Of a stretch of DNA of 60,958 bases, positions 32,488 through 57,604 are shown one piece after another; position 1 is the first letter of the stretch, and each line of letters opens with the position of its first letter. The notes under the pieces were generated by a model that saw only the letters and a program-made list of their open reading frames with translations, was not told the DNA's origin and did no database searches. The stretch spans positions 1 to 60,958 of the IMG/VR virus record IMGVR_UViG_3300045996_002303; one strand, written 5' to 3'. The translations under genes and the position numbers were made by a program. This DNA comes from a virus. Lineage: Duplodnaviria > Caudoviricetes.

Positions 32488-32793
32488 CTAATATTTTAAA
32501 TGAGGCGCAAGAGCCGCCATTATGGTCTGGTTTACGTGCTGATTGTTCAGCAAGGGCGTTGCATTGGCAATCGCTGCGCTCTCCACTTCCTTGTTAAACT
32601 CCACCCACTTACCAGCGCAGGCGATCATGCCTAACAGGTACATTGGGCCGGAAACATCTGCCGCAGCGACTACATGCCCGTTATCTGTGATCCCCGCCTT
32701 ATATGTCACATCAACGTACTGCGCTTCACTCCATCTGAAATTGTACAGTGACGGGTCAACGTGGAGCTTGAAAGTGTTGGTAACGGTTTTCAT
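32488..32793 (-). CDS. Hypothetical protein
   Basis: Coupled ORF. Confidence 0.55.
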   Translation of the reverse strand: MKTVTNTFKLHVDPSLYNFRWSEAQYVDVTYKAGITDNGHVVAAADVSGPMYLLGMIACAGKWVEFNKEVESAAIANATPLLNNQHVNQTIMAALAPHLKY

Positions 32794-33062
32794 GGCTGAG
32801 GGGTTGAAAGGTGAGCCAATAAAGCATCGGCAAGCTTTACTGCATTTTCTGCAACACTATCGGCGATTTCACCATCTGCCATCCATGTGCCATTTGCATC
32901 AGTAGCAGAGCATAAACCTTGTAAGGCCATAGCAGCGAAGTACTCCCGTTTACTCAGGCCCGTGAACGAGCAGCCGTTATCATGCGATGAAAGCGTTGTA
33001 TAAATACCTGCCTCATTTGCCGTTACAGGCAGAGGAAACGCCGGTGTGTTCTTGTTTTCCAT
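32790..33062 (-). CDS. Conserved small phage protein
   Basis: PAFP...GLSKREYFAAMALQGL...AVKLADALL. Confidence 0.75.
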   Translation of the reverse strand: MENKNTPAFPLPVTANEAGIYTTLSSHDNGCSFTGLSKREYFAAMALQGLCSATDANGTWMADGEIADSVAENAVKLADALLAHLSTPQP

Positions 33063-33246
33063 GACTATTTTTATTAAACTGTTTAAAATATTCGCTCTCC
33101 GCCTCCTCCCTGCTCATCCCCTCGTCAATTGCCTTGTGGTAGCTTTCTATCGCACTGTCCTCTATCGCCTGGCGACTACCGCGACGGATCTGTTTTAGGC
33201 GGTGGTAGTCGGTGAGCTGGTCGGGGTGGTCGATGGCGGGGGTCAT
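33013..33246 (-). CDS. Hypothetical protein
   Basis: Early-operon ORF. Confidence 0.5.
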   Translation of the reverse strand: MTPAIDHPDQLTDYHRLKQIRRGSRQAIEDSAIESYHKAIDEGMSREEAESEYFKQFNKNSHGKQEHTGVSSACNGK

Positions 33247-33276
33247 AAAAGTTCAATTTCTGAATGAATAAAAATT

Positions 33277-33356
33277 AACTTAACTAAACAGAACTAAACA
33301 GAACTCCGCTTCACGTCACGCAACTGAACACCAGTTCACAGCACGCCACTCCACGC
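33277..33356 (-). repeat. Pentamer-periodic array 1 (16 units, GTK+NN on minus strand), candidate guide ncRNA
   Basis: Plus strand: aactt aacta aacag aacta aacag aactc cgctt cacgt cacgc aactg aacac cagtt cacag cacgc cactc cacgc; C at position 3 in 15 of 16 units. Confidence 0.85.
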
Positions 33357-33359
33357 TAA

Positions 33360-33920
33360 TTATTTCAAATCGATTAATTCAAACCTTCCGAAGCTCCCGT
33401 TGTTGGTTGGTCTATATGAACCGATACCTACATAGTTACCTGTAGTTGTTACCAACTCGGTTATTGTTTCTTTGGTAATTGTTTTTTCGCCAATTTCCAG
33501 GGTAAAAGCTGCCTGCCATTCAGTCCATTTGGGTCGAACAGTAATTACCCTTGCTTTTACGTTTCGATTAACAGCAGACCTTTTATCAATTACATCATAC
33601 TCCGGTAAAAGAATTTCATCTGGTGTTACCATGAACATGGCTGCAATTATGCTTTTCATGCTCTTAGTTTTAGTGCCAACTTTAGATTTAAGGTAGCCGC
33701 CCCCATTGATTAATGCCATTCGTAATTGATCTGCCGGTATATAACATTTACCGTCGCTGTTTCGGTAGCAATGGTATTCGGCGCGTACAGCATCTTCGTG
33801 GCTCACCTCTGGTCGTTCAATAATGTGCTTTCTGTTTTTCTCCCATTGTTCTAACTTCTGATCATCCATTCGATGTTGCATGTAGGGAGTTAATCCTTTA
33901 ATTGTTACTTGATATTTCAT
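33360..33920 (-). CDS. Solo Cas7/RAMP-like protein (186 aa; true start ATG 33920)
   Basis: RAMP-like YQVTIKGLTPYMQH strand, YIPADQLRMAL (cf. IPGSSLKGAL), C-terminal Gly-rich loop GIGSYRPTNNGSFGRFEL. Confidence 0.75.
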   Translation of the reverse strand: MKYQVTIKGLTPYMQHRMDDQKLEQWEKNRKHIIERPEVSHEDAVRAEYHCYRNSDGKCYIPADQLRMALINGGGYLKSKVGTKTKSMKSIIAAMFMVTPDEILLPEYDVIDKRSAVNRNVKARVITVRPKWTEWQAAFTLEIGEKTITKETITELVTTTGNYVGIGSYRPTNNGSFGRFELIDLK

Positions 33921-33927
33921 ATAAAAA

Positions 33928-33997
33928 AACTTTACTTTGCTAAACGCCACGCGACCTAACAGAACGGAACTACACGGTACCGGACTCTACTTCGCAT
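33928..33997 (-). repeat. Pentamer-periodic array 2 (14 units, GYN+NN on minus strand), candidate guide ncRNA
   Basis: Plus strand: aactt tactt tgcta aacgc cacgc gacct aacag aacgg aacta cacgg taccg gactc tactt cgcat; C at position 3 in 14 of 14 units. Confidence 0.85.
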
Positions 33998-34096
33998 TAA
34001 AATATTATTTCAATAAACTCATTATTCTTGTGCATGCTTTTGCTGCTTGATCGGCACTTAAAGGCACGGATACATGGTCTTTCATTATTATCTGGG

Positions 34097-34303
34097 TTAT
34101 TGGTTTGTCACAGGGGAATCAATTCTAATCTTGATGCTGTCATTGGTGATAACAAGGCCCGTAATCCTTTCACCCTTACCAATCCTGCACTCTTTCCCTA
34201 GTAAGAACCTCAGGGTTTCGTAGTTAATGTTCATAAACGAGCCGGTTGTATCAACCTCAGAATCTTTTAGACCATCGAACGGGATGGTTATTTTGTCACT
34301 CAT
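34097..34303 (-). CDS. Hypothetical protein
   Basis: Early-operon ORF. Confidence 0.55.
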   Translation of the reverse strand: MSDKITIPFDGLKDSEVDTTGSFMNINYETLRFLLGKECRIGKGERITGLVITNDSIKIRIDSPVTNQ

Positions 34304-34396
34304 TACTGACAGATATAATTGATGAAATAAATAGCGCCGATGATCAATGCGCCGAGTAAAACAGGGTAGAGTTTTTTCATGATATCTATTTAAGGG

Positions 34397-34636
34397 TTAA
34401 GAAACTTTTTTAATAAACTGTTCGGGTATACTTTCTAACTTGTAGAGGTAACCGCCGCCGGGACTTTCTTTATACTCAATGATCTTCTGCTCCCTCGCCG
34501 CCTGCAGCTTCCTTTTATTCCAGCCTGTCACCTCCATGATCCACACGTGGGTTACCCAGGTGGATTTCTCTGGCACCTTCTTCAGGCTCTGTACTTCACG
34601 AAGAAGGCGGTCAATCTTCTTTTCGATGTCAGACAT
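34397..34636 (-). CDS. Putative excisionase-like DNA-binding protein
   Basis: Small wHTH-like pattern (WV..IMEVTGW..KLQAAR..YLYKL), second gene of the early operon. Confidence 0.5.
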   Translation of the reverse strand: MSDIEKKIDRLLREVQSLKKVPEKSTWVTHVWIMEVTGWNKRKLQAAREQKIIEYKESPGGGYLYKLESIPEQFIKKVS

Positions 34637-34698
34637 AAAATATTGTTAAGTGATGGGGTGAGGGTTGTGCGGGTGAAACTTTTCTGTTTGCTTTGCGA

Positions 34699-34914
34699 CT
34701 ACTTTGCTGCAGCAGTTAATGCAGCCCTTATCTTCTCTACCGTGCCAGGTGATGCCGAACCGATCAGTAACACACGATTCAGCACCAGCCTGTCAATGCC
34801 GATAGATACAGCACATTCCACTTCCGTGTCAAACCCTTTGCGATATTGCTTAAGCGCCTTTCTTTCTTCTGCTGTCAGCTTTTCGCTTTTCCTGCTAGTT
34901 GTATAAGTGCTCAT
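34699..34914 (-). CDS. Cro-like HTH regulator
   Basis: 71 aa HTH (ECAVSIGIDRLVLNRVL), divergent from the repressor. Confidence 0.65.
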   Translation of the reverse strand: MSTYTTSRKSEKLTAEERKALKQYRKGFDTEVECAVSIGIDRLVLNRVLLIGSASPGTVEKIRAALTAAAK

Positions 34915-56977: not shown

Positions 56978-57604
56978 ATGCTCCTAAACTTCCCCACCCT
57001 CGTCAATAAATACTCCATCAAAGCCAACGGCTGCATCCATGTAGGCGCTCATTTCGCGCAAGAACATGCCGATTACGTTGCGGCCGGCATAAAGCGTTTC
57101 GTATATATCGAGCCCTGCGCAGCCGCTTTTAATATTCTAAAAAATAAGTTCTCCGCACATCATCATATACAATTGTTCAATGTAGCGTGTGGTGAGGTAG
57201 AGTGTGAACAAGTCATGTATACTGGCAGTCAGAACGAAGGACAGAGCAACAGTCTGCTGAAGATGGATAAACACTTGAAGATCCACCCGGGTATAACTCT
57301 GCCGAATACCGAGATTGTAACGGTAAAGAGATTGGACAGTCTTGGCCTTGCTCACAAAGGATATCAATTACTGGTGATGGATTGCCAGGGTTTCGAAGGG
57401 CGGGTATTAAAAGGCGCCAAAGAAACACTGAAGCAGGTTAATTACGTGTATACTGAAGTGAATAAAGATGAAGTATATCAAGGTTGTACGCTGGTTAATG
57501 AACTTGACGAGTTACTGCATGAATTCGAACGTGTAGAAACGGGTCAATGGGTTGGCGGCATGTGGTCTGACGCATTGTATATTAGAAAAACCCGACTGGG
57601 ATGA
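56978..57604 (+). CDS. FkbM family methyltransferase
   Basis: IHVGAH, IEP, LLVMDCQGFEGRVLKGA, YTEV, DALY. Confidence 0.88.
   Translation: MLLNFPTLVNKYSIKANGCIHVGAHFAQEHADYVAAGIKRFVYIEPCAAAFNILKNKFSAHHHIQLFNVACGEVECEQVMYTGSQNEGQSNSLLKMDKHLKIHPGITLPNTEIVTVKRLDSLGLAHKGYQLLVMDCQGFEGRVLKGAKETLKQVNYVYTEVNKDEVYQGCTLVNELDELLHEFERVETGQWVGGMWSDALYIRKTRLG

What the first reader, a model, noticed from the sequence alone, without database searches (positions are those of the whole stretch)
33277..33356. Downstream array: readable dinucleotide code
Minus strand 5'-3': GC gtg GA gtg GC gtg CT gtg AA ctg GT gtt CA gtt GC gtg AC gtg AA gcg GA gtt CT gtt TA gtt CT gtt TA gtt AA gtt, then AATTTTT. The variable positions are diverse while the period is never broken, unlike a slippage microsatellite. 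The constant triplet shifts from GTG (5') to GTT (3'). The exact register (GTK+NN versus NGT+NN) is uncertain. I did not identify a target by eye.
Basis: partly seen in the sequence, partly recalled or inferred. Interest (0 to 1): 0.8.

Follow-up and report, generated by a model that had tools for sequence, protein, structure and literature searches.

The report
Phage VIPR guide-RNA array (WGT/NN type)
The five-base rhythm is real and is one of two guide-RNA arrays flanking a Cas7-like gene of a phage VIPR system, a CRISPR-related RNA-guided DNA silencer first described in 2026, so it is a new example of a known kind.

Summary
On the minus strand, 33356..33277 is 16 five-base units with G-pyrimidine at fixed positions in 15 of 16 (14 GT, 1 GC, 1 CT), followed by a T-run. 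Runs of six GT at period 5 occur only here and in a second array at 33995..33926. Shuffles gave 0 such runs.

The two arrays flank a 186-aa gene (33920..33360). A profile of this protein matches the solved "SUSP1 Vipr protein" (E 2.3e-27). Its model (pLDDT 95.8) has a Cas7/Csm3 RAMP fold.

In the 18 sequences scanned, 43 of 44 such arrays lie on the gene's strand, with hypervariable spacers.

This is a VIPR system (bioRxiv 10.64898/2026.04.26.720920 and .720927). Its repeat is the non-canonical form already in print as YNNNG or WGT/NN.

By homology the register is xGY+NN, not GTK+NN.

I found no target: four exact collection scans and local searches with shuffled controls were all blank. No accessory (vap) gene was seen.

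The scan has reported VIPR arrays before on other DNA. Verdict: new member of a known kind, modest interest.

The parts
33926..33995 (-). Upstream vrRNA array: 14 five-base units (GCGAA, then 13 units from GTAGA to GTTTT). 12 are GT and 2 are GC.
   Evidence: It is the second strongest period-5 peak of the window.
33921..33929 (-). T-run (TTTTTTT AT) ending the upstream array, directly before the vipr ATG
   Evidence: Sequence
33360..33920 (-). vipr gene: 186 aa plus stop, a RAMP/Cas7-like protein (P0002)
   Evidence: phrog_4652; SUSP1 Vipr; RAMP fold
33275..33356 (-). Downstream vrRNA array (the finding): 16 five-base units. 14 are GT, 1 is GC and 1 is CT. It starts 4 bases after the vipr stop codon.
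33266..33274 (-). T-run (TTTTTATTC) ending the downstream array. Candidate 3' end or short tail.
   Evidence: Sequence. A run of 4 or more T follows within 14 nt in 23 of 44 arrays.

Best explanation
The array is the DNA template of a VIPR guide RNA (vrRNA). VIPR stands for Viral Interference Programmable Repeat.

The locus is a minimal VIPR system in the early region of a temperate phage of Bacteroidota-like hosts. It has one vipr gene (33920..33360, minus strand) flanked by two vrRNA arrays on the same strand.

By analogy with the solved SUSP1 system, I infer the following steps:
- One Vipr protomer binds each five-base repeat and the protomers form a helical filament.
- The fixed x-G-Y bases are flipped out and held by the thumb arginine and the G-loop.
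- The two bases after the pyrimidine are presented for pairing.
- The filament binds double-stranded DNA that carries the matching dinucleotides at every codon-like triplet, skipping one base.
- Binding silences transcription of a competing phage, prophage or satellite.

Transcription, RNP formation, the exact register, the skip rule and the target are inferred.

The repeat is the non-canonical YNNNG (WGT/NN) form: the first G of GGY is relaxed to mostly A or T.
For: - **Protein to Vipr.** A profile of 95 relatives matches PDB 36pp_D 'SUSP1 Vipr protein' over residues 1-184 at E 2.3e-27. The single sequence gives E 6.2e-07.
- **Fold.** The AlphaFold model has pLDDT 95.8. Its best structural matches are Cas7/Csm3/Cmr4 backbone subunits: Foldseek E 4e-06 and below, 79 matches at E<=0.001; VIA Z 11.6 to 10 for the top seven rows.
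- **Key residues.** In the alignment, the SUSP1 residues that paper 10.64898/2026.04.26.720927 (section 5) names as reading the repeat align as follows: H17 to H16; R138 to R129, which is invariant in 95 of 95; W178 to Y169; R179 to R170, which is R in 91 of 95.
- **Arrays travel with the gene.** In the 18 sequences scanned, 43 of 44 arrays of 7 or more units lie on the vipr strand. The 44th is a chance run inside an ORF. Mononucleotide shuffles gave 0 to 0.2 arrays per sequence.
- **Unit logo.** Over 656 units the fixed positions are G 97% and T 93% / C 7%. The three spacer positions vary, with 63 of 64 triplets seen.
- **Unit numbers.** The arrays have 16 and 13-14 units. The published range is 9-16.
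- **Repeat form is in print.** The paper's Methods list alternative 'NNNGG, YNNNG, and NNNNG' repeats. A second paper names 'WGT/NN' among non-canonical VIPR repeats (10.64898/2026.10.21.760802, passages).
- **Phage setting.** The window has portal, terminase, primase/helicase, integrase and an Erf-like protein, and the tool calls it a virus record.
- **No self-target**, as published for VIPR.
Against: - No natural target was found under any register or skip rule.
- No conserved neighbouring gene that could be a vap was found. Among same-strand ORFs within 3.5 kb of vipr in 18 loci, only vipr itself is shared widely. The next cluster is shared by 3 loci.
- No structured 3' tail like the SUSP1 pseudoknot is evident. 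Each array simply ends in a T-run.
- There is no expression evidence.
Confidence: 0.9

Rival explanations
1. The arrays are only assembly or regulatory sites for the RAMP-like protein, for example autoregulation of the flanked gene or of the next gene's translation, or an RNA sponge. In this reading the variable bases carry no target information, as with TRAP and its spaced triplets.
For: - Both arrays end within 10-30 nt of a start codon on the same strand.
- The spacers are C-poor (12-14%) and A/T-rich.
- No target was found.
Against: - The protein is a sequence homologue of a Vipr whose guide function has been shown experimentally.
- Relatives carry up to 8 tandem arrays, or runs of 73-90 units. 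That suits a guide repertoire, not a single operator.
- The spacers are hypervariable between relatives.
Confidence: 0.06
2. The locus is a decaying or inactive VIPR relic whose arrays are no longer used.
For: Two of 16 units are degenerate. No vap gene was found. No target was found.
Against: - The vipr frame is intact at full family length, with all 3 invariant and 11 near-invariant residues of the family present.
- Both arrays keep phase over 65-80 nt.
- The published text says degenerate units are common in working vrRNAs.
Confidence: 0.04
3. The array is a DNA-level repeat with no RNA role, such as a slippage microsatellite, curved DNA or replication-origin iterons.
For: It is a short-period tandem repeat in an intergenic gap. 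TRF reports only partial periods of 10 and 25.
Against: - Only 2 of the 5 positions are fixed, which slippage does not produce.
- The arrays are strand-locked to a RAMP gene in 43 of 44 cases.
- They are hypervariable between relatives.
Confidence: 0.01

Closest known systems
Type II VIPR system of Escherichia phage SUSP1 (vipr, vap1, four vrRNAs); bioRxiv 10.64898/2026.04.26.720920 and 10.64898/2026.04.26.720927; PDB 36pp
   Same: - Homologous Vipr protein.
- vrRNA arrays with five-base units on the gene's strand, one upstream and one downstream.
- 13-16 units per array.
- Phage-borne, with no self-target.
   Different: - The repeat is x-G-T with x mostly A or T, not GGY. SUSP2, a close relative that I fetched, has G at that position in 80% of units.
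- The G-loop residue aligned to SUSP1 D177, which reads the first G, is Ser here.
- No vap gene overlaps the end of vipr, whereas SUSP2, LESphi2, MakoManhole and DSL-LC04 all have one there.
- No pseudoknot tail was seen.
Non-canonical VIPR repeats: 'YNNNG' (10.64898/2026.04.26.720920, Methods) and 'WGT/NN' (10.64898/2026.10.21.760802, passages)
   Same: The unit logo is the same: fixed G-Y, a preceding base that is mostly W, and two freely variable bases.
   Different: I could not see the figures or supplements that show which clades, hosts and VIPR types carry these repeats. I therefore cannot say whether this Bacteroidota-phage clade is among them.
Class 1 CRISPR backbone subunits (Cas7, Csm3, Cmr4)
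   Same: RAMP fold with a thumb and a glycine-rich loop. One protomer per fixed step of guide RNA, with flipped bases.
   Different: The step is 5 nt, not 6. There is no CRISPR repeat-spacer array and there are no other cas genes in the locus. The guide is read discontinuously. Sequence identity to these subunits is only 8-16%.
TRAP (trp RNA-binding attenuation protein) and its spaced GAG/UAG triplets (recalled, not from a call)
   Same: Short fixed motifs at a period of 5-6 nt in unstructured RNA, each bound by one subunit of an oligomer.
   Different: The protein is unrelated: P0002 has no Pfam hit and has a RAMP fold. TRAP spacers carry no information, and TRAP is a closed ring with a fixed number of sites.

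Membership tests
VIPR system | A Vipr protein: a single-RRM RAMP with G-loop and thumb, homologous to described Viprs | tested here: met
   Profile match to PDB 36pp_D SUSP1 Vipr at E 2.3e-27 over the whole length; single sequence E 6.2e-07. Model pLDDT 95.8. Best structural matches are Cas7/Csm3. The G-loop motif GIGSYRPTNNGSFGRF and thumb residue R129 are conserved.
VIPR system | Tandem five-base repeats beside vipr on its strand, with a fixed G-pyrimidine core and hypervariable remaining bases | tested here: met
   for the window. 43 of 44 arrays in 18 sequences lie on the vipr strand. Logo G 97%, Y 100%, and 63 of 64 spacer triplets seen.
VIPR system | Canonical GGY/NN repeat | tested here: not met
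   The base before G-Y is A .40, T .33, C .14, G .13. The repeat is the alternative YNNNG / WGT/NN form, which the VIPR papers include in the family.
VIPR system | About 9-16 repeats per vrRNA | tested here: met
   16 units and 13-14 units.
VIPR system | Conserved structured 3' tail after the repeat tract | tested here: inconclusive
   The window's arrays end in semi-conserved WAGT units and a T-run, and their folding energy equals that of shuffles. Some relatives have a hairpin plus T-run (L003, L004, L006) or a conserved 55-nt inter-array segment with a hairpin at z -3.5 (L012).
VIPR system | Accessory vap gene next to vipr (described as 'typical', not universal) | tested here: inconclusive
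   BLASTP clustering found no conserved same-strand neighbour within 3.5 kb in 18 loci. Remote homology and structure of the neighbours were not tested. The 77-aa and 90-aa ORFs downstream have no Pfam hit.
VIPR system | Viral or proviral location | tested here: met
   Portal, terminase, primase/helicase, integrase and Erf-like protein. The tool calls the window a virus record.
VIPR system | vrRNAs are expressed and bound by Vipr | not testable with these tools
   This needs small-RNA sequencing or a pull-down.
VIPR system | NN string matches a foreign DNA target under the 1-nt skip rule, with no self-target | tested here: inconclusive
   No self-target was found. There were 0 exact hits in viral contigs and metagenome contigs. 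There was no excess over shuffled guides in 326 kb of related phage DNA. A mismatch-tolerant search of large collections could not be run.
TRAP-type RNA-binding attenuation system | A TRAP-family protein | tested here: not met
   P0002 and 6 neighbouring ORFs have no such Pfam hit. P0002 has a RAMP fold.

The most novel reading that the evidence does not exclude
This Bacteroidota-phage clade may read DNA by a rule different from the published two-read-one-skip code. Examples would be pairing of all three variable bases (a triplet code), a different skip length, or action on RNA. Four features set the clade apart: Ser instead of the Asp that reads the first G, WGT/NN units, no vap gene, and a bare U-run in place of a pseudoknot tail. 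The split at that G-loop position in the wider family (D 42, S 32, A 13 of 95) would then be a specificity switch for the repeat type.
Probability: 0.12. Interest if true: 0.6.

Novelty: new member of a known kind. Interest (0 to 1): 0.3.

Why it matters
VIPR is a very recent discovery: an RNA-guided DNA-binding system proposed to be older than CRISPR. This locus adds a compact example from a temperate phage of Bacteroidota-like hosts, with one gene, two guides and no recognisable accessory gene.

It uses the relaxed WGT/NN repeat. Together with the Asp-to-Ser change at the residue that reads the first G in SUSP1, this suggests a simple protein-RNA specificity rule that could be tested.

It does not change the picture of what VIPR is. 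Its practical value is for annotation: the protein family is large (813 hits; 2,016 clusters), has no Pfam model and is listed as phrog_4652 'unknown function'.

Tried and rejected
- **Rfam.** No family matched at E<=1 in 32500..34700.
- **RNA structure.** The arrays fold no better than shuffles.
- **Early ideas dropped.** I first considered a TRAP-like ring, an N/nut-like antiterminator and a Cas6-like processing site. I dropped them once the Vipr match appeared.
- **Named phages.** tblastn of P0002 against 50,697 phage records gave no match at E 1e-3.
- **Relatives.** Relatives of the genome could not be drawn because the window is a virus record. The whole 'genome' is the window itself.
- **Alignment A1.** It was too diverse to seed a locus search, so I used the closer set A2.
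- **Local exact-seed target search.** 11 register/skip rules were tested with 44 arrays (762 units) against 326 kb. This gave 1-8 seed hits per rule, against 0-16 in ten shuffled controls per rule.
- **Local mismatch-tolerant target search.** 198 ten-unit windows under 5 rules gave real and shuffled distributions that were alike.
- **Self-target.** The best matches equal those of shuffled guides.
- **Collection scans.** Exact scans found 0 matches in each.
- **Sequencing runs.** No RNA holder was listed. One DNA run held a small share of the words and I did not lay it.
- **Stop-codon depletion.** There is none in the concatenated triplets, so they are not simply sense codons (counts).
- **Asp-to-G1 correlation.** Four GGY-type phages (SUSP2, LESphi2, MakoManhole, DSL-LC04) have Asp and G at 80-97% at the first position. 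Listonella phage phiHSIC also has Asp but has no G there, and its arrays may lie on the opposite strand. The rule is therefore not clean.

Full report
**Observation.** In a G-first register it has 16 five-base units. Fourteen start with GT, one with GC and one with CT. TTTTT follows at 33274..33270. A pattern of six GT at period 5 matches six times in the 60,958-base window, always inside this array or a second one at 33944..33990. It matched in none of 100 dinucleotide-preserving shuffles. The two arrays are the strongest period-5 spectral peaks of the window. A third weak GT run at 57182..57218 lies inside a 208-aa ORF and is at chance level.

**Anatomy.** Both arrays are on the minus strand and flank one gene (33920..33360, 186 aa, P0002). 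The upstream array (33995..33926, 13-14 units) ends in a T-run two bases before the ATG. The downstream array starts four bases after the stop codon. As RNA the arrays fold no better than shuffled sequence (z +0.15 and -0.04). Nothing in Rfam matches.

The window is a temperate phage. It has portal, large terminase, primase/helicase, integrase and an Erf-like annealing protein, and the tools treat it as a virus record whose whole genome is this window. The locus lies in the leftward early region, next to a putative excisionase-like gene.

**Relatives.** P0002 has no Pfam hit and belongs to phrog_4652, 'unknown function'. The family is large: 813 hits in one collection and 2,016 clusters at 50% identity in another.

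I fetched 14 viral loci at 45-71% identity. I then fetched 13 loci with wider flanks, 12 of them the same contigs and one new, and two loci from MAGs labelled Cyclobacteriaceae and Draconibacterium orientale. In the 18 sequences scanned, 44 arrays of 7 or more units were found, and 43 lie on the strand of the gene. Mononucleotide shuffles gave 0 to 0.2 arrays per sequence.

Over 656 units from 37 arrays, the fixed positions are G 97% and T 93% / C 7%. The other three positions vary freely and are C-poor, and 63 of 64 triplets occur. Array architecture varies:
- single arrays, as in this window;
- eight arrays separated by a conserved 55-nt segment with a hairpin (L012);
- unbroken runs of 73-90 units (L010, L029).

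**Identity.** A profile of 95 diverse relatives matches one solved structure, PDB 36pp chain D, 'SUSP1 Vipr protein', over its whole length at E 2.3e-27. P0002 alone gives E 6.2e-07. The AlphaFold model is confident (pLDDT 95.8). Its best structural matches are the Cas7-type backbone subunits of type III, IV and VII CRISPR complexes (Foldseek; VIA Z up to 11.6). The Vipr entry itself does not appear in the rows returned from either structure library.

**Literature.** A full-text search led to the papers below.
- 10.64898/2026.04.26.720920. I read the Results, Methods sections 20 and 26, and passages. It describes VIPR: a phage-borne RAMP protein plus vrRNAs of 9-16 pentamers. GGY is fixed and NN is hypervariable. 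The NN bases pair with double-stranded DNA while one target base in three is skipped, which silences competing phages and satellites. Its Methods state that some loci have 'NNNGG, YNNNG, and NNNNG' repeats. The repeat here is YNNNG.
- 10.64898/2026.10.21.760802 (passages only). It lists 'WGT/NN' among non-canonical VIPR repeats found beside Vipr-like folds. That is the logo seen here (W = 73% at that position).
- 10.64898/2026.04.26.720927 (sections 5 and 6). It gives the structural mechanism.
- 10.64898/2026.10.15.759431 (passages). It shows the biological role against a satellite.

**Register.** In SUSP1 the second G is held by thumb R138 and stacks on W178. The pyrimidine sits against R179. 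The first G is read by H17 and D177. In the alignment these residues correspond to R129, Y169, R170, H16 and S168. R129 is invariant in 95 of 95 relatives and R170 is R in 91 of 95.

The conserved G-T here is therefore most simply G2-Y3.

The Asp-to-Ser change fits the loss of the first G, but this is inference only. Four GGY-type phages that I fetched have Asp there. Listonella phage phiHSIC also has Asp without a G at that position.

**Targets.** No target was found.
- Self-targets are absent: the best matches equal those of shuffled guides.
- In 326 kb of related phage DNA, 11 register/skip rules gave no more exact seeds than unit-shuffled guides.
- A mismatch-tolerant run of 198 ten-unit windows gave identical real and shuffled distributions.

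These scans required perfect matches over 10-12 units, so a target at the published 80% threshold would have been missed. The code for this array remains unread.

**Differences from the type system.** No gene overlaps the end of vipr, whereas SUSP2, LESphi2, MakoManhole and DSL-LC04 all have a 146-179-aa gene there. No neighbour is conserved across the 18 loci at BLASTP level. No pseudoknot-like tail is seen. Which of the seven VIPR types this is cannot be said without the papers' figures and supplements, which I could not see.

**Verdict.** The array is real and is far beyond chance. With about 0.9 confidence it is a vrRNA gene of a VIPR system with the already described WGT/NN (YNNNG) repeat. 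The scan has reported VIPR arrays on other DNA before, including GY+NNN ones (8 notes). This is a new member of a known kind.

Noticed in passing
L012:3070-3965 (same contig as L027): Eight vrRNA arrays in tandem, each ending TTTAGTATAGTTCTTTT. They are separated by a conserved segment of about 55 nt that forms a hairpin (z -3.5 against shuffles). The layout resembles a CRISPR repeat-spacer array, with pentamer tracts as the 'spacers'.
   Followed up: partly
L010:2083-2444 and L029:7338-7784 (L014): Unbroken pentamer runs of 73 and 90 units, punctuated by GTATTTT-like units. They may be the 'staggered' multi-guide arrays mentioned in the VIPR paper.
   Followed up: no
L003:3130-3175, L004:3105-3150, L006:3100-3140: In these relatives the array is followed by a hairpin plus T-run whose loop carries a shared GGGGTTAA/GGAGGTTAA motif. 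This could be a structured tail or an intrinsic terminator, and it is absent from the window.
   Followed up: no
L016:10584-10923 (Draconibacterium orientale MAG): Three arrays each end in the same ACAATGGTTTnTCCCTGGTTCG segment. This is a clade-specific conserved tail.
   Followed up: no
L032:3151-3391 (Listonella phage phiHSIC, AY772740.1): Period-5 arrays read GCA+NN on the vipr strand or TGC+NN on the opposite strand. They lie under an annotated 'hypothetical protein' (ORF21), so that CDS is probably a mis-called vrRNA array.
   Followed up: partly
alignment A1, column of P0002 residue 168: The G-loop residue aligned to SUSP1 D177 splits in the family: D 42, S 32, A 13 of 95. The residue aligned to H17 splits H 54, N 22, D 7. 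These positions may be repeat-specificity residues.
   Followed up: partly
window 57182-57218 (+): A run of 7 GT in 8 units at period 5 lies inside a 208-aa ORF (56978..57604). It is a chance run, not an array.
   Followed up: yes
window 34006-34086 (-): A 26-codon ORF sits between the 68-aa ORF and the upstream array. The sequence TATTTTAA, which resembles the Bacteroidota -7 promoter motif (consensus recalled, not tested), lies a few bases before the first unit.
   Followed up: no
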